This document shows, piece after piece, positions 5,806-52,000 of a stretch of 64,000 bases of DNA (its first letter is position 1; every line of letters starts with the position of its first letter). Under the pieces are notes generated by a model. The model saw only the letters and a program-made list of their open reading frames with translations, was not told the origin of the DNA and ran no database searches. A program made the position numbers and the translations under genes. This stretch comes from Zootoca vivipara (Eukaryota), in NCBI RefSeq assembly GCF_963506605.1, contig NC_083277.1:94798001-94862000 (forward strand). The letters run 5' to 3'.

Positions 5806-5944
5806 ATGAGATGAAAAAACCATAGGGTTGGATACAGATTTAGTACTTTAGGAATAGATGCACTGAAATAAAGTCCTATTGATTTCAGTGCATCTATTCC
5901 AAAAGTACTAAATCTGTATCCAACCCTTTGTTTTTTCATCTCAT
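5806..5944. repeat. Long near-perfect inverted repeat (arms ~63 bp)
   Basis: ATGAGATGAAAAAAC..AGGGTTGGATACAGATTTAGTACTTT.GGAATAGATGCACTGAAAT pairs with ATTTCAGTGCATCTATTCC.AAAGTACTAAATCTGTATCCAACCCT..GTTTTTTCATCTCAT. Confidence 0.9.
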
Positions 5945-12104: not shown

Positions 12105-12433
12105 AAGTGATACAATCTTCAAATATCTGAAGGGCTGTCACATGGAGTAAGCTTGCTTTTTTTGCTGCTCCAGTGTGTAGTACCTGAAGCAATGGATTCA
12201 AATTCCAGAAAGGAGATTCCAATTAAACATTGAGAAGAACTTTTCTGATAGGGAGAACTGTTTTGACAGTGCAACAGACAACCTCAGAAGGTGGTGGTGA
12301 ACTATCCTTAATTGGAGGTTTTAAAGAGGTGGGTGGCCTCTGTCAGGGATTGTTTAGCTGTGATTCCTGCATTGCAGGGGGTTGAACTAGATGCCCATCA
12401 GGTCCTCTCCAACACTACAATTATTTTATTCTA
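12105..12433 (+). mobile_element. Old CR1 LINE 3' fragment
   Basis: FKYLKGCH-like coding remnant and CR1 3'UTR (TTCCTGCATTGCAGGGGGTTGAACTAGATG...). Confidence 0.75.
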
Positions 12434-43000: not shown

Positions 43001-46000
43001 ATTAAATCCTGATTTATCCGACCGCCTTGCCCAACAGGTTTCCAAAAAGTTGCTGCTCCTTACTTTGCTTGTAGTGAGTTCAACACGGAATGTCGCTCCA
43101 TCAGGGCCTCTTGCAACTGCCCAATTCGTGTCGCTGATACCCTGCAGCATGGAGAAGAGAGGCAATATCCAGGTATGGGACTATCCGTAAAATATATTTT
43201 GTAGCAAGAGCAGGGAAGGGGGCAGCCAAGTTGTGGCAAAAGTACTGGCTAAAATAGGACAAACAGTGACAAGCAGAAGGTAGATTCTTAGAAATCCTTT
43301 AAAAAAACAACAACCCACAGCATACTTTGTAAATAGTTCCTATGGGAGAAGTAATGCTTTACAAGGGTTCAGCACTCTGAATAACCTGCTTTGATATTTT
43401 TGTGAGCTGCTTTTGACTGTATGAGGAAAGGCGGGTACAAACTCCCCCCTGAAGGGCCAGTACTTTTATTTAAGACACACCTAATTGATATGAAAATACA
43501 CAGCACATTGTATAGAGGGGCTTAAAGTGAGAAAAATGCAGGGGCCCCATGGGCGTGTAGCTTGCAAACTGTTATCAAATGCCTGCCTTTCTCTACACGC
43601 CCAGTAAAGGAGGAGGGGAGTACAAGCTGGGTTCACAGGACCAGATAAGGGAGAAGGGTGTATTGCATTTGGAAAACATGTGTTTTTGTAGTTAAGGAAA
43701 TAAGGTGTTGGCCTGTTTTTGACTGTATAAAAGTATTGTAAATCCACAATTCAGTGTGCAGGTTGCGAGCTGATTGCACTGCACCATTTACTTAGCATAT
43801 GCTGAGCAAATAAATCTTGTTGTATCCTGCCTGGCATGTTGCCTCTTTGTGTGGTTCCATTGCTCCTAATACCCGGGTGGGACTTAGGTCCTACATTTCT
43901 GGGGGCTCGTCCGGGATTTGTACAGGACATTTGGACCCACACAAGGGCAGGTCCGACCTCCCCGGTCCGGTTGGGGGCCGCGGAGCCGCTGCTTGATGTT
44001 TCAGCGCGCACCAGGTGCTTGTGGCTGGGAAACTGAAAGCAAGTATCCGCGATCGCTGCCGTGCCGTGGATGAGTGGAGTGACAAGGAATGGAGCCGGCT
44101 GAAGGAAAGAGACTGTCTCAACCCCGCAGGATGGGTGAGTAAGGGACCCCGCAGCAGAGGTAGGGGCAAGAGGCCTGATCAGCCTCGTGGAAGTGGTCTA
44201 GTAGGCACGCAGTAGAGGTAAGACGTGACCGAACCATCCTTCCATAAGGGACGGAGTAAAACGCGTAAAGGTAAACGCGTAAAGGTAAACGCGTAAGGTA
44301 AAAATAAATTTAAATAAATAAATAAATAAAAATAAAGAAATGAATAAAAAAAATGGGAAGGTAAAAGGGAACCAGGTTAGGTTGGGAGGCTGTTTGTGTG
44401 AGGCGCCTATATGCATGGAGTGTGAAAGAGTGGGGGACCGTAGAGGAAACCCAAAACTGAGTGTGGGTCTCTGCCTTGGCAGAGACCGGACTGGGCAGTA
44501 GTGCGTTTCCTGCGTGTGGGCGACCACCCAGGCCACGAAACCCAGGTGCGAGTGTGTGAGTGCAGTGAATAATTGAGGTGAAGGGAAAATGGGGGGAGGC
44601 TCATCAACCCCAGTGTATAAGAGTTTGATGGAACAAGCAAATTCCTTAAAATGAAGGAAAGATATATATATGGTTATATGTTACATGTTGTCTGTTATGT
44701 GTGTTTGTTAAGTATATGTGAGTCTGTTCCTTGTCTCTGTCAAAAGGCCAGACAGAAACCCATAAATAATTAGAGAAAAATCCAGCCTGAGAGTCTGTAT
44801 GTTAGAGATCTCTGTTTTTTCTTGAAGTAAATAAGAGCTGTACTCAAGACTGAAAATGTTCAAGGGATTTGTTTAAATTTGGCCATAATATCCACAGATA
44901 GTTATAATTGCAAGCTTGCTCTAAAATTTTTAGTTTAAAGAAGCCATGTTGGACCTGATCAATCTTAAACATGGCAATGTAAGAATGAGGTGTGCAAAGG
45001 TTTTGTTATTTGAAAAGGGCTCCAAAATAGAGTCTTCCTCTAAGTGGTAGAAAGGAAAGGAAAGAATTCCTGTACGTGTTAAACTGTGTTCTGAGAGGGG
45101 GATTGCCCCCCCTTGCAATTAAAGAGGAAAGAAATTTGGAGCTTATGGGGAATGTTTAGTTGGAATTGAGTTTATGAGAGAGCTAATTTACCGTCATGTT
45201 CTATTCTACTTTGAAATGTGCTTTGAATTTAGCCTAATGTTTTTAATACGGCGTGCCTTCTAGGAAAATATTATTAAAGGTGGAGGCTCCATAGCCAGCA
45301 ATTGTCTACCTGAATCCAGTTTTAGCTTTGGTTCAATTGGGCAGAAGGGCTCCTACAGTTTCTGTGAGAGCAGCCAGGATTTACTAATAAGTAAACTTAC
45401 TCCCAAGTAAGCTTCCTTTCATGGGAAAGCTAAAAGGGAGGGGGGAAAGTATTGCTAGGAACTCCATTTGGTGTGAAAAGTACTCACCCCTTCTCAGTTT
45501 CTGTATGTGCTTATTTAACCCTTAGTTACTCCTATCCTTTGCGTTAGGCATACCATGCAAGTGAGGAAGATTCTTCTCTAGAAAATTCACCCAACCTGGG
45601 TATCTTATGTGTTATAAGCATCCCTTAGACTTTTTAGTTTAAGGAAGTAACTTCTGTCTTGAACTGTTTATCTTAAGGGTTGTTAAAGGCTTCTATATAA
45701 ATATTGGTATTTTTATCTTCCCCTTCTTATTTTCCTAGTACACTTGTGTGCTTGCATGATAGGGCATAGCCTGGGATTCCTTTCCCAGTTTTATGTCTGT
45801 ATTTAAATGTATGTGTCTCTCTGGTAGCACAAATCTTGCTGTGAACCCTGTATTTTAGAGCAGTGGTTCCCAATTAGCTAATTACTGAGGACCCCCTACT
45901 TTTGAAATTTTTGATAACTCTATAGTAGTTACCTCTGCAAAGCAAGTTTTTGAACAAAATGTGGGGTAGCTCCTAATAAGCAATGGATTTTAGGGATACT

Positions 46001-49000
46001 AAAAACAGATTAGGGCTGGGTGATAGCTGGTTTTCAACATCATGGTATATCAGCAGCTTATATCCTGATAAACCATGATGTGTGCCCCCCCCAAATATGG
46101 ACCAGGCGGTGGTAGGGGGTGGGGGAAAGTCTAACAGAGACCTCACCCCTCGCTGGCTCATGCTGGAGGCAAGGTGGGGGTTAAACTTCCCACTTGAGGG
46201 GAATGCAACTGCATACCTCTCAATGGAGAACTGGGACAGAGCTTGCATTTCCCCAGCTGAGCAGCCGCAATCCCACACCTGCTTGCGTGCAGAGGGACTC
46301 GGGAGGCAGCAGTTTCACCCATGATACACCGCTGAGTGAAGCCGTAGTTGCAGTCTGTCCCTCATGCTGGTCCTGGGCAATGTATCAGCCAGGCCTAGTG
46401 GGGTTGAGGGAAGGAGCAGCCACAGAGGTTGGATGAGGGGGGAGGAAGCAGAGTCACTTCCACCGCATGGTTTGAGTGGAAGGGGATGAGGGGGTACCGG
46501 TACTTCAAGCCGCCATCAGCAGGGCAGCGAGCGGTGGCAGCCAGTGAAGATACATGCCCACTGTGGCTGCTGCTGCTTTCTTGCTGATTAAGAAAGGCTG
46601 CTTTGCCTCAGTGAGAAGGGAAGGTAGTGCCATGGTGCCTTGAAGTGAGGATGATCTGTCAGTGTGAGGGGAAGGCAGGGTTTCGCAATCGGCTGCCCTG
46701 TTTTCCCTCAGCCTGAGGAGTGAAACATTGCTATGTATTGGCAGGTCAAAATTTTTTATTGCGATGGATTCTGGCCAATCTATTGAAAAACCACACAGCG
46801 CTATAACAGACCATAAAATTTGTGCTATTACCATGCAAAAATGACAAAAAATTAGTTGGGGGGAGGCAAGGGATGGGGCCGTGTACCACCTGGGTGTACT
46901 CCGTGGACCCCCAGGGGTCCCCGGACCCCTAATTGGGAACCATTGTTTTAGAGGGTCAGATTGGATGACCTTAGGTCCCTTCCAATTCTGTTACTTTATG
47001 GCTAGGTGGAAGGCAACGTGTCTGCAAGCCTACAAATTTCTTGCTGAGTAGGGGAGTTAAATGGTGGATTGTATGTTGTATGTGCAGTGAAGGTGCTAGG
47101 TAGGTAGAAGGAGAAAGAGAGAATGTGTCTGCAAGCAAGGAAAAGTGAGTTTAAATTCTGGTGGTGTAGTATAATGGGCTGAATCTGGTCAAGCATTGGT
47201 TTTCAGAGTTTGGAATGGAATTTAAGAAATGGAGTTTAGAAAGAAGTGGAGTTGGTATATCATGCATTGAGATGAGTATCCAAAGAGTTTTCACCATGTT
47301 GTCAGCAATTTTTGTGAGCTGCAAAGTTTAGGCACACACGAATTCATAATTAGGCTTTGGCATAAGGGAGGCAGAGAATTTAGTCTGCCCATGGCTGTAA
47401 TTATTAAATATATGAATTCTGGTCATTTCACTCGTACATAAGGGAGTGGATGATTTTCTGTTAATAACCAGAAATAGAGCACACAAATAATAATAATCCA
47501 CATTTGTGTAATTTTGGAATAGAAATCTGTACCCCAAAACTTGTAGAAAAAGGAGGCAAAATAAATCCCAAATTCCTTTGCCTGGGGTATATGTCTGTTT
47601 GGTGCAAGAAACAAGAAATAGTGTAGCAAATTATATTAGGACTCCAAACTAGGAAAATGGATATAAACTGGCTTTGGAAATTTTTTGCTAGGTTTCTGTT
47701 TTTTTGTTTGAAATCTAACCCTATTTTTAAAGTCTATTCCTCACCTTTCCCTTCCTTTATTCAAATTATGATTTAGCCAAGAGCATTTTAAATGGTACAA
47801 TAGATTTGCTGAAATATGAACTCTGTACATGCACAGAGGCTATGTCAGCTTGAAGAGAAAGAGAAAGGAGCAAAATGAAGTTTTAATTAAGAGGTTGCCA
47901 AGTTCCAAAATCTAACATGCCAAATTCTTTCCACAGGTATAAATATCAGAGTACTCCTACTATAAGTCTGTCTAATAATAATATTCCCTTTCAAACAGGA
48001 TGAATGAAGGGGAAAAATACAGGATGGGTGATGCCTGGCTTGAGAGCAGTGCATGTAAAAAGGATCTGGGAGTCTTGGTGGACCATAGACTTGACATGGG
48101 TCAACGGTGTGGTGCAGCAGCTAAAAAGGGGGCCGATGCAATTCTGAGCTGCATAAATAGGAGTATAGCATCTAGATCAGGGGAAGTAATGGTGCCACTG
48201 TATTCTGCTCTGGTCAAAACCTCACCTGGGGTGCTATGTCTGGTTCTGGGCACCACAGTTCGGGAGGGATACTGACAAGCTGGAACAGTGTCCAAAAGAG
48301 GGCAACCAAAGTGGTCAAAGGCCTGGAAACGATGCCTTATGAGGAACGGCTTGGGGAGCTGGGTGTGTTTGGCCTGGAGAAGAGAGGGATAAGGGGTGAT
48401 ATGATAACCATGTTCAAATATATAAAGGGCTGTCGTGTGGAGGAGGGAGAAAGGTTGTTTTCTGCTGCTCTGAAGGGGCAGACACGGAGCAGTGGATTGG
48501 ACTGCAGGAAAGAAGATTCTACCTAGACATTGGGAGGAACTTCCTGACAGTGGGAGCTGTTCGGCAGTGGAGTTTGCTGCCGGGGAGTGTGGTGGAGTCT
48601 CATTCTTTGGAGGTCTTTAAGCAGAGGCTTGACGGGCATATGTCAAGAATGCTTTGATGGTGTTTCCTGCTTGGCAGTGGGTTGGACTGGATGACCCTTG
48701 TGGTCTCTTTCAACTCTATGATTCTATGATTCTAGGATACACGAACCTCAAAGAGAATTCAGAACCATATAAGGAACTTGTGTCCTAATTAACAAAAATT
48801 TTGTCCTTGTTTTCTTCCATAGCCAAACTAGGTGAAGTAAATTAAACAGACAGCTTCCCAAGAAGAAATTTCTATAATATTCTCCCTTTTTCTGATTGTT
48901 ATTATTATTTTCTAACTAATTATGTCTTTAGACCCCAACCCCCTGCAGGTCTATTTTCAAAGGATGTTTTACAGGAAATCAAAATGATAAATAACATCTC

Positions 49001-52000
49001 CTCACCAACTAAGCAGCCTGTCAATGCACCACAAGTGGCCACAACAATTTATTCCCATAAAAGACTTGAGGAACTGAGTAATTGTATTATGAAGAACATT
49101 TTATCTCTTTGATCACAATCTAAGAAGGAAAGAACCTAAAAAAAACTATAACATTTCATCAAGGGTTAGAAAGCCCTTGTGCACAAAAGGTTGGAGCTAC
49201 ATGCAAAGTCAGCAAAAATTATCTCAAGTTCACCTGATTGCCTCAAGATATACAAATGATGTAGAATTAATAATTTGTATGTTTTGTGTATTATGTGTTA
49301 TTGTGTAGGAATGCTGAAATGTGTTGAATGGGACTGACAAAAGGAGGGAATTGTTGGGTGTAATAGTTTCTGTGTTTAATATTCTTTGTATAACGTATTA
49401 TTGCTTACACCCCAATGGAGGATTCTCATGCATTTAATTACTTTAATAGATCAGTCCAAGATTTAGATTAGATCAATTTATGACCGCATTTCTTTCTCCC
49501 ACCTGGAACTCTGCAGTGTACCAGCCTTCTCTACACATTTTAGATTGTTTTAATTCATTCTATCAAGGAGAAGCTTCAGGATTCATGAAAGCCCAGATAA
49601 CAGGAAAATTATATATGCTTTGATTTAGCAGGAATGATCCCATACAGGGTTAAATTCACAATTGGACAGCAGCTCTTTGCAGAAAGGTTTGGAAAGTTAA
49701 TGGGGCTAAATGACTTAGTTCTGATTGGACATGTATCCCAGGTGTAATGAACTTTCTTTGGTCCCCTTGGAACAACTGAGCAACTTTCCTATAAGTGCAA
49801 AACCAACGCCAAATAATGCATCCCATAGAAAGGTCAAGGCAAGGACATCTCTCTCACGACATGTTCAAAACCTGTCCAAAACCTATGGCAAGGCGAAAAT
49901 GGTCAAAGGGAAGCCCTTTAAGGGATCCCCCAGGAATTGTTGCTATGGAATGCTGAAGGTCAAGAGACCAGAGTAAGCTAGATTGACACCTGGGAACATG
50001 CACACACAAAAAGGCAAAACAAACAGCATTTTCAGTTGCTGGTGGTCCTTCCTGTTAAATAAGCATAGCCCACTATTGAGAAAAAAAATGTTTTACCCAA
50101 GGTGCCAGAATTCCACAAGTAATATAGTATTGTGATAGCAGTATCCAGAGCATGTGCCCTCTGTGCCAAAAACAATCCAAGGGCAGGGGTGCTGCCCCCA
50201 CTGGGGATCCAGAGTGGAGGGTTCATCCCTATGGAAGAAGTGGTAGTAGATTTCACTACCACCAGCTAGAGGCTTCAGCCATTTTTAAGAGGCTGGCTCC
50301 CCTGGGTTGGAACCACATTATTGGATCCCATAGCCATTTTTTAATGTGTTCTTTGCTTAGTCCCATGTATTTGCTGATTGATCGAACAACCATGCCCCAC
50401 ATAATGGCCCTGTATCGAGGTATCCCTCCAGATGACGAGATTCCTCTCTTGGAGTGAAATCTGTCACAAAAAGAAAGGGGGAAATGAAGGGCCAGTACTT
50501 TTATTTAAGACACACCTAATTGATATGAAAATACACAGCACATTGTATAGAGGGGCTTAAAGTGAGAAAAATGCAGGGGCCCCATGGGCGTGTAGCTTGC
50601 AAACTGTTATCAAATGCCTGCCTTTCTCTACACGCCCAGTAAAGGAGGAGGGGAGTACAAGCTGGGTTCACAGGACCAGATAAGGGAGAAGGGTGTATTG
50701 CATTTGGAAAACATGTGTTTTTGTAGTTAAGGAAATAAGGTGTTGGCCTGTTTTTGACTGTATAAAAGTATTGTAAATCCACAATTCAGTGTGCAGGTTG
50801 CGAGCTGATTGCACTGCACCATTTACTTAGCATATGCTGAGCAAATAAATCTTGTTGTATCCTGCCTGGCATGTTGCCTCTTTGTGTGGTTCCATTGCTC
50901 CTAATACCCGGGTGGGACTTAGGTCCTACACCCCCTTTAAAATAAACAAATAACAGTATTCCGACTGCTAGACCAGAAGACCTATTAGGGTCAGCACAGA
51001 TGTCACGGTTGTACCATACAAAGTGAAGCGAAGTAAAATAGCAATATCCCTAAACTTCCACAGTGGAAGTAACCTCTTTTTGAGATGCTCCCTGTTCCAT
51101 GCTACCATTTCTGTTTGGCATAACACCTGACTTAGCACCTGTAAACAACACTGAGGAACCATGGTCTGGACTCAGCTGAAAAGGGAAAATATCTGCAGCC
51201 CAGAATCCACTCACCTACTGCTGTGGTTCATCACCTCTCGCTGCTTGTCAATGGTGTCCATCATATCCAGGTACTGGAAATCACATATGTATAAAATGAG
51301 TAACCTGAGTTTGAAATTCAAGCAGCAGGCAGGCAGGCAAATGTACTCAGGAGTACTGGGACAGCTGAACTTTTCTACCCTCAGGCCACAGCTTTTCTTC
51401 CTAGTCCTCCAGTTAACATGTCTATAGATTTTTAATCCCACCCTTCTACTCATGAGCTTTGGGAGACGCACAGTGTCCCCCCTGCATTTTAACCACACAA
51501 CAATCCTACACAACAATCAAGGTTAAGTTGAGAGGTAGCGTGGCCTAAACTCATTCAAATAGCTTTATGGTTTGAACCTGAGTTTCCCCAGTCCTAGCCT
51601 CAAGCTCTATTTGCAAGACCGCAAGTCTTTCTTTGCTGTGGGAATGTTATCACTGTAGTCACAAGAACTGAAGGTAAACACCAAGATGCTGAAGAGCAAC
51701 AGGTTAGATCCACAGGCGTCTTGTCAAGTATACAGTGGTACCTCAACTTACGAATTTAATGCGTTCTGAACACGCATTCGTAAGTTGAAAAAATTTGTAA
51801 GTCGAATCCCATAGGAATGCATTGGGAGAAAAAATTCGTAAGTCGAAGCAACCCTATCGAAAAACTCCTATCTAAACCGTATCCAAGATGGCGGACGGAG
51901 CTCCGTTTGTAAGTAGAAACATTCGTAAGTAGAGTTATTCGTAAGTCAAGGTACCACTGTACAGTGGTACCTCGGTTTATGAACACAATTGGTTCCGGAA

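What the first reader, a model, noticed from the sequence alone, without database searches (positions are those of the whole stretch)
48005..48734. CR1 fragment with a fossil ADAR (A-to-I) hyper-editing signature
Seen plus recalled CR1 ORF2 motifs: most departures are sense-strand A->G. HLEYCVQFWAPQFKKD reads [16 protein letters not shown] at 48223-48270 (E->GGG, TAC->TGC, AAG->GGG, AAG->AGG; CAG->TGG fits CAG->CGG followed by CpG decay). YEERLRELGMFSLEKR..GCHIEE reads [22 protein letters not shown]. In-window check against the CR1 at 12189-12242 (a different subfamily): GCAATGG->GCAGTGG, TAAACATT->TAGACATT, GAGAAGAACTT->GGGAGGAACTT. Many changes are TA->TG or AA->GG, matching ADAR neighbour preference. 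APOBEC would give G->A instead. Inference: a hyper-edited RNA was reverse transcribed into the germline, either the CR1 mRNA itself or the genomic RNA of the host LTR element.
Basis: partly seen in the sequence, partly recalled or inferred. Interest (0 to 1): 0.78.

Follow-up and report, generated by a model that had tools for sequence, protein, structure and literature searches.

The report
RNA edits repeatedly written into germline
A piece of one jumping gene, sitting inside a second, retrovirus-like jumping element, carries about 44 A-to-G changes and no T-to-C changes, and different copies have gained further A-to-G changes only in that piece, which likely means that the RNA-editing enzyme ADAR rewrote the element's RNA more than once and the edits were copied back into inherited DNA.

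Summary
Confirmed and extended. 48003-48733 is a 5'-truncated CR1 inserted, with an AGGAT target duplication, into a non-coding LTR element (43450-50930, identical 446-bp LTRs). Against 26 free CR1 copies it has 44 A>G and 0 T>C among 66 substitutions (p=2e-12), with 5'-G avoided and 3'-G favoured, as published for reptile hyper-editing. Nine LTR-element copies carry the insert or part of it. 42 A>G are shared, so they predate amplification; 20 more occur in only some copies. These later changes are 5-fold enriched in the CR1 over the element's flanks (10/101 vs 14/655, p=5e-4) and also avoid 5'-G (p=0.002). The CR1 inserted once, so at least the later changes arose while it was in the LTR element, most likely by editing of that element's RNA. 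The first burst probably did too, since edited free CR1s are rare (0 of 85 sampled; one independent case found by motif). One free CR1 carries a patch matching the edited lineage. ADAR and the pairing partner are inferred. This scan noted A>G fossils in other genomes (6 unchecked notes); none of those listings mentions repeated editing of a LINE passenger. In print I found only APOBEC fossils and A>G in avian retroviruses.

The parts
43450..43895 (+). 5' LTR (446 bp, TG...CA) of a non-coding LTR element
   Evidence: 446 of 446 identical to the 3' LTR; about 40 related LTRs scored in the genome
43900..43917 (+). primer-binding site, tRNA-Pro-like (label recalled, not from a call)
   Evidence: sequence just 3' of the LTR
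45861..46945 (.). embedded non-autonomous DNA transposon (hAT-like by its 8-bp TTTTAGAG duplication; label recalled); internal control, not A>G-biased
   Evidence: 92% to free copy L166; free copy to window A>G 6, T>C 2, G>A 10, C>T 7 over 1124 columns
47997..48001 (+). AGGAT, 5' copy of the CR1 target-site duplication
   Evidence: the empty site in about 80%-identical relatives reads ...CAAACAGGATACGCG... in L055 and L060; 5 RNA reads join 47996 to 48734 with 5 letters fitting either side
48003..48733 (+). 5'-truncated CR1: ORF2 3' end, 3' UTR and ATTCTAT-type tail, with 42 shared and further copy-specific A>G changes
48480..48553 (+). densely edited patch; the same alleles, including two non-A>G changes, appear inside a free CR1 copy (L192)
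48584..48733 (+). 3' stretch with none of the shared edits (25 A in a row unedited) but 4 copy-specific ones
48734..48738 (+). AGGAT, 3' copy of the CR1 target-site duplication
50468..50484 (+). polypurine tract
50485..50930 (+). 3' LTR; element flanked by C runs on both sides (4-bp duplications GAAA and ACTC in sibling copies L116 and L118)

Best explanation
A young CR1 fragment sits inside a non-coding LTR element, and its A-to-G changes were likely made by ADAR on that element's RNA, in more than one replication round, then fixed in DNA by reverse transcription. Shown: the CR1 inserted once (target duplication, 3' tail, empty-site relatives); 42 A>G are shared by all copies that cover a site; 20 more are copy-specific, enriched in the CR1 and ADAR-like in context; the flanks and an embedded DNA transposon are unbiased. 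Inferred: the element's RNA paired over the CR1 stretch with antisense CR1 RNA (from another transcript, or from an inverted CR1 in a read-through transcript), ADAR turned A to inosine there, and a helper's reverse transcriptase read inosine as G. G.U pairs would keep the duplex going, so each later round would add a few more edits at the remaining good sites.
For: 44 A>G against 0 T>C. 5'-G depletion and 3'-G enrichment match the reptile pattern in PMC5625713 (passages), which also reports CR1 3' fragments as heavy hyper-editing targets in chicken. Minority-G at majority-A columns among five lineages: 12/103 in the CR1 5' half against 14/655 in the flank (p=4e-5), while G>A, T>C and C>T are not raised (p=0.45, 0.68, 1.0). 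Dropping two sites where G is the free-CR1 state gives 10/101 (p=5e-4); also dropping CpG-context sites gives 7/98 against 12/526 (p=0.02, CR1 denominator kept conservative). The later changes avoid 5'-G: 1 of 57 against 19 of 105 (p=0.002). Unpolarised A/G segregation is 3-fold higher in the CR1, C/T equal, in two copy sets. Edit-made CpGs decayed both before the split (3 shared TG) and after it (48134 in L120, 48261 in L119). Private A>G and T>C rates in 85 free copies are equal (2.5 and 2.3 per 1000, p=0.81) and none is hyper-edited. No antisense CR1 lies inside the element. Free-type CR1 reads fall on both strands in three RNA runs, while reads on the element's flanks fall mostly on one strand; about 20 same-strand reads cross the 5' junction in X23.
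Against: No call shows ADAR or inosine. Shared edits spare the last 150 nt (terminal run p=0.006, longest run anywhere p=0.07), as expected if the first burst hit a CR1 RNA whose tail had to stay intact; three-lineage polarity at 48634 and 48713 is ambiguous, so this is soft. One solitary, independently edited CR1 piece exists (L190: 10 A>G, 1 T>C in 176 nt), so editing before insertion does happen. The shared layer (42) is larger than any lineage's later gain (about 2-10). G>A among copy-specific changes is also numerous (15, several at alignment edges). The free-copy sample was found by similarity and is biased against edited copies. The RNA reads were too shallow (6% of each run), and lack matched DNA, to show present-day editing.
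Confidence: 0.72

Rival explanations
1. Two phases: the CR1 RNA itself was hyper-edited before it was inserted (the shared layer), and only the later, smaller gains came from editing of the LTR element's RNA.
For: Shared edits spare the 3' 150 nt while 4 of 10 later gains in the three full-length lineages lie there (p=8e-4); CR1-clade LINEs are described as needing their 3' tail to be recognised (PMC4176376, passages); an independent solitary edited CR1 piece exists (L190).
Against: Pre-edited CR1 insertions look rare: 0 of 85 sampled copies; one clear independent case among 13 non-carrier hits of a double-edit motif, in a family with some 7000 first-look candidates. Editing on the LTR element's RNA is needed anyway for the later layer. 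The tail's own structure could shield it in either model.
Confidence: 0.17
2. One hyper-editing event only; the copy-specific differences are ordinary mutation, CpG decay back to A, or conversion by free CR1 copies.
For: 4 of the 20 copy-specific sites are in CA/CG context; conversion-like transfer between carriers and free CR1 does occur (L192); the copies recombine (conflicting flank patterns).
Against: Enrichment survives removal of CpG-context sites (p=0.02); 0 of 114 ancestral G columns were lost in all lineages but L119, whereas 5-6 reversions would be needed; private G at 48189 lies 2 nt from a retained edit; the later changes avoid 5'-G.
Confidence: 0.07
3. Not ADAR: biased reverse-transcriptase misincorporation, GC-biased gene conversion or a G-rich CR1 subfamily produced the pattern.
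For: No direct evidence of inosine; retroviral copying is error-prone (copies differ by up to about 2.5% in the flanks despite identical or near-identical LTR pairs).
Against: GC-biased conversion is strand-symmetric but T>C is 0; polymerase bias would extend into the flanks and the DNA transposon, which are unbiased; no free subfamily has the G alleles; the neighbour pattern is that of ADAR.
Confidence: 0.04

Closest known systems
A-to-G hypermutation in avian retroviruses (Rous-associated virus, avian leukosis virus), as summarised in PMC12925331 (passages read; primary papers not read)
   Same: Clustered A>G of ADAR type in retroviral sequence, confined to one region (U3 and an inverted repeat).
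   Different: Those are infectious retroviruses with a viral target region. Here the element is endogenous and non-coding, the target is a LINE passenger with no inverted partner inside the element, and edits accumulated over several lineages.
APOBEC 'DNA editing' of LTR retrotransposons in vertebrate genomes (PMC4866542; passages read)
   Same: Strand-specific, context-biased deaminase scars fixed in germline LTR elements.
   Different: G>A made on DNA, against A>G here; that screen filtered for G-to-A and not A-to-G; here the scar is restricted to a 730-bp insert.
ADAR hyper-editing of repeats in transcriptomes, including lizard and chicken CR1 (PMC5625713 and PMC4365171; passages read)
   Same: Same neighbour preference (5' G depleted, 3' G enriched in reptiles); CR1 3' fragments as targets.
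   Different: Those edits are in RNA only; here they stand in genomic DNA and are inherited and multiplied.
Endogenous MMTV Mtv61 5' half (PMC12548423; passages read)
   Same: An ERV with A>G excess for which ADAR was considered.
   Different: The authors found no ADAR context there; here the context test is positive.

Membership tests
ADAR hyper-editing signature | A>G dominates over the strand mirror T>C and all other changes | tested here: met
   44 vs 0; 44 of 66 substitutions
ADAR hyper-editing signature | G depleted 5' and enriched 3' of edited A | tested here: met
   p=6e-4 and 6e-3; later gains 5' p=0.002, no clear 3' bias
ADAR hyper-editing signature | Confined to a region able to form long double-stranded RNA | tested here: inconclusive
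   confined to the CR1; no partner inside the element; CR1 RNA on both strands exists; actual duplex not shown
ADAR hyper-editing signature | Inosine in RNA, dependent on ADAR | not testable with these tools
   RNA reads shallow and without matched DNA
APOBEC-edited retroelement | Sense-strand G>A dominance | tested here: not met
   G>A 10 vs A>G 44, polarised by free copies
CR1 LINE insertion by target-primed reverse transcription | 5' truncation, intact 3' short-repeat tail, target duplication, empty site in relatives | tested here: met
   89% to free copies, most of which extend further 5'
CR1 LINE insertion by target-primed reverse transcription | CR1-clade reverse transcriptase domain | not tested
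Non-autonomous LTR element / class I ERV-like | Paired LTRs, primer-binding site, polypurine tract, short target duplication, dispersed copies | tested here: met
   L117's target duplication was not clear
Non-autonomous LTR element / class I ERV-like | Retroviral gag/pol/env homology that places it in a class | tested here: inconclusive
   window element: longest + strand open frame 116 aa; no match to the RNase H-integrase frame of L119 outside the CR1 part; no Pfam hit for two frames. Recombinant L119 carries RNase_H, rve and MLVIN_C

The most novel reading that the evidence does not exclude
An LTR element that picks up a piece of an abundant LINE becomes a standing ADAR target: antisense LINE RNA from elsewhere in the transcriptome pairs with the passenger, each replication round writes new edits into the germline, and edited patches leak back into free LINE copies. 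Such passengers would be a datable recording tape of germline ADAR activity and of RNA pairing in trans, and A>G ratchets of this kind should be found wherever LTR elements carry young LINE or SINE inserts.
Probability: 0.5. Interest if true: 0.85.

Novelty: new variant of a known kind. Interest (0 to 1): 0.74.

Why it matters
RNA editing is normally not inherited. This family gives an internally controlled record of edits becoming DNA: a known unedited state (free copies), a clean boundary, unbiased flanks in the same RNA and several lineages. It suggests ADAR can act as a local, repeated mutagen of mobile elements in the germline or early embryo, in parallel with APOBEC, and it makes a testable prediction for any LTR element with a young repeat passenger. 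It also warns that G-rich 'subfamilies' and divergence-based ages of repeats can be editing products: this insert looks about 11% diverged from a family whose copies differ from their majority by about 2%.

Tried and rejected
G-rich free subfamily: rejected. Assembly artefact: rejected (nine carriers on six contigs; independent contigs). Capture of a host transcript or template-switch capture of the CR1: rejected in favour of direct insertion because of the AGGAT duplication and tail; no host source locus with these flanks turned up. Bias in flanks: none against sibling copies or three relatives at about 80% (A>G 30-41, T>C 24-27, G>A 34-49, C>T 36-50). A weak editing bias in ordinary free CR1s: the pooled excess (265 A>G, 116 T>C in 102 alignments) vanished when only private changes were counted. 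Antisense partner inside the element: none; two short antisense CR1 ends lie 17 and 29 kb away in the window and say nothing about the founder locus. Present-day editing in RNA: no RNA holder listed; in raw reads one A>G not seen in assembled carriers (48013, 4 of 20 reads in X23, beside a G run) cannot be told from an allele or slip. tRNA scan: nothing. Literature searches listed no paper describing ADAR-type A>G fossils in genomic LINE or LTR copies (listings and abstract starts seen; most subscription papers are not in the library; no supplements were read).

Full report
Setting. The window lies on contig C2 of a 1.44-Gb genome. The finding sits inside an LTR element at 43450-50930 with two identical 446-bp LTRs, a primer-binding site at 43900 (tRNA-Pro-like, recalled), a polypurine tract and C runs on both sides. 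Its longest + strand open frame is 116 aa and is the CR1 remnant, so it is non-coding and must be mobilised by a helper (inference).

The CR1 is a direct insertion. Relatives of the element at about 80% identity lack the CR1 and show a single AGGAT-type site (AGGAT in L055 and L060, AAGAT in L044 and L046); the window has AGGAT on both sides of a 5'-truncated CR1 with an intact ATTCTAT-type tail. Five RNA reads join 47996 to 48734 with five letters fitting either side. Most free copies continue 5' of 48003. The insertion therefore happened once.

The observation. The genome search gave 4 close copies and then free CR1s at 88-89%. Against the majority of 26 free copies the window has A>G 44, T>C 0, G>A 10, C>T 6 and 6 transversions at 48015-48734 (MAFFT over the whole piece gave 46 and 0 of 69). 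Free copies have 1-5 A>G each. Neighbours: 5' T 0.41, A 0.27, C 0.20, G 0.07; 3' G 0.33 against 0.14-0.17 for the others. This is the pattern reported for hyper-edited sites (PMC4365171, passages) and for reptiles in particular (PMC5625713, passages). The 26 copies were picked by likeness to the edited query, so I added copies found with a free copy as query and by other searches; among 85 distinct alignments of 300 columns or more the highest A>G count was 8, and private A>G and T>C rates were equal.

Carriers. Six elements carry the 5' junction: the window, L116, L117 and L118 with the whole CR1 (L118 is interrupted by an insertion), and L119 and L120, where the CR1 breaks off near 48430-48460 into other retroviral sequence. 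L121-L123 keep a 52-bp remnant with the same G alleles. L119's downstream frame has RNase_H, rve and MLVIN_C domains; L119 and L120 have other LTRs and another primer-binding site. LTR pairs are 98.5-100% identical in the six copies with complete pairs, while lineages differ by 1.3-2.6% in the flanks: recent integrations after several copying rounds (inference). The flank tree groups (window, L116), (L117, L118), L120 and (L119, L121-123), with some conflicting sites that suggest recombination.

Two layers. 42 A>G are present in every lineage that covers the site, with no shared T>C; 20 more are in some lineages only (48218 dropped as an alignment offset). Three shared CA>TG changes show that edit-made CpGs decayed before the lineages split. 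The later layer is not ordinary drift. Among five lineages, minority G at majority-A columns is 12/103 in the CR1 5' half and 14/655 in the 5' flank (p=4e-5); G>A 7/127 vs 21/553, T>C 2/88 vs 12/657 and C>T 2/66 vs 18/404 are not raised. It holds after removing two ancestral-G sites (10/101, p=5e-4) and CpG-context sites (p=0.02). The later changes avoid 5'-G (1/57 vs 19/105, p=0.002). Reversion cannot explain L119's private G's, since 0 of 114 ancestral-G columns show that pattern. Since the CR1 inserted once, these changes arose while it was part of the LTR element; an RNA-level cause is inferred from strand and context.

Confinement. Flanks show balanced changes, and the embedded DNA transposon at 45861-46945 has A>G 6, T>C 2, G>A 10, C>T 7 against a free copy. 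So the same RNA was hit only where it matches an abundant repeat. No antisense CR1 lies in the element. In three RNA runs, free-type CR1 reads fall on both strands, whereas flank reads fall mostly on one; about 20 reads cross the 5' junction in X23, nearly all with the edited letter at 48033. An antisense partner is thus available, in trans or through read-through into an inverted CR1; which one is unknown. PMC5625713 explains chicken CR1 editing by nearby opposite 3' fragments.

Where did the first layer arise? For the CR1-RNA model: the shared edits leave the last 25 A untouched (p=0.006 for a terminal run, 0.07 for a run anywhere), CR1-clade elements are described as tail-dependent (PMC4176376, passages), and one solitary piece, L190, has its own edit pattern (10 A>G, 1 T>C in 176 nt, flanks unmatched elsewhere). 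Against it: such copies look rare. A double-edit motif gave 16 hits, 3 carriers and 13 others (three within one tandem array); L190 is the one clear independent case, L192 is a shared patch, L191, L200 and L203 have 6-8 A>G with 1-3 T>C and are unresolved, and the rest have few changes. The family has thousands of copies (7047 first-look candidates; a rough figure). Since editing inside the element is needed anyway, I put the whole series on the element's RNA at 0.72 and the two-phase model at 0.17.

Leak into free CR1. L192 is an otherwise ordinary CR1 whose stretch matching 48480-48553 shares with the carriers about ten A>G and both non-A>G changes (48480, 48520), has G at 48514 like L117 and L118, lacks the carriers' 1-bp deletion and shares none of the derived alleles that I compared by eye outside the patch. 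DNA conversion or a template switch from a carrier lineage is the simplest reading; the direction is inferred.

Known context. A>G hypermutation of avian retroviruses is cited in PMC12925331 (passages). APOBEC G>A scars in ERVs are well described, and that screen selected against A>G (PMC4866542, passages). An MMTV ERV with A>G excess failed the ADAR context test (PMC12548423, passages). Eight searches listed no paper on ADAR-type fossils in genomic LINE or LTR copies; the library lacks most subscription papers. Six earlier notes of this scan report A>G fossils in other genomes; they are unchecked, and the few lines shown describe single founder events or hairpins. The two notes in this genome that fit my words concern other things.

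Verdict. A real feature; ADAR very likely but inferred; new variant of a known kind. What sets it apart is the evidence for repeated editing of a LINE passenger during LTR-element replication, with controls inside the same molecule.

Noticed in passing
L192 (G000:C8:36016725-36017360), L210:4525-5160: Free CR1 with a 75-110 bp patch that matches the edited carrier lineage, including two non-A>G changes: conversion or template switch.
   Followed up: partly
L190 / L211:4843-5018 (G000:C5 near 65654600): Solitary 176-nt CR1 piece with an independent A>G pattern (10 A>G, 1 T>C), most of the 3' UTR missing, tail kept.
   Followed up: partly
L213 (G000:C19:29000-38900) and L214 (G000:C18:7233500-7243400): Dense tandem and inverted arrays of CR1 3' ends of about 200-400 bp; some units have clustered A>G plus T>C, as both arms of fold-back RNA would. 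Such arrays could also be sources of antisense CR1 RNA.
   Followed up: no
L119, L120, L121-L123: Recombinants that join this element's interior and part of the edited CR1 to MLV-like RNase H-integrase sequence; L119 and L120 have different 407-bp LTRs and a different primer-binding site (tRNA-Lys-like by recall).
   Followed up: partly
L164, L165, L170-L173: Further elements sharing 44137-47157 or 44339-46442 of the window element but not the CR1 region: a mosaic family.
   Followed up: no
window 45861-46945: Non-autonomous DNA transposon with an 8-bp duplication carried inside the LTR element; a short CR1-like 3' end follows at about 46955-47000.
   Followed up: partly
L118 (G000:C9 near 62030600-62031800): An insertion of about 1.1 kb with 72-bp tandem units splits the CR1 at the position matching 48670.
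   Followed up: no
window 48104, 48354, 48403, 48473, 48478 (various copies): Several copy-specific G>A changes lie within 1-2 nt of an A>G edit; unexplained.
   Followed up: no
window 47920-48000, 48800-48821: Several pyrimidine-tract/AG motifs resembling splice acceptors in the non-coding interior, also present in the relatives.
   Followed up: no
window 5815-5936: Near-perfect 58-nt inverted repeat with a 6-nt loop.
   Followed up: no
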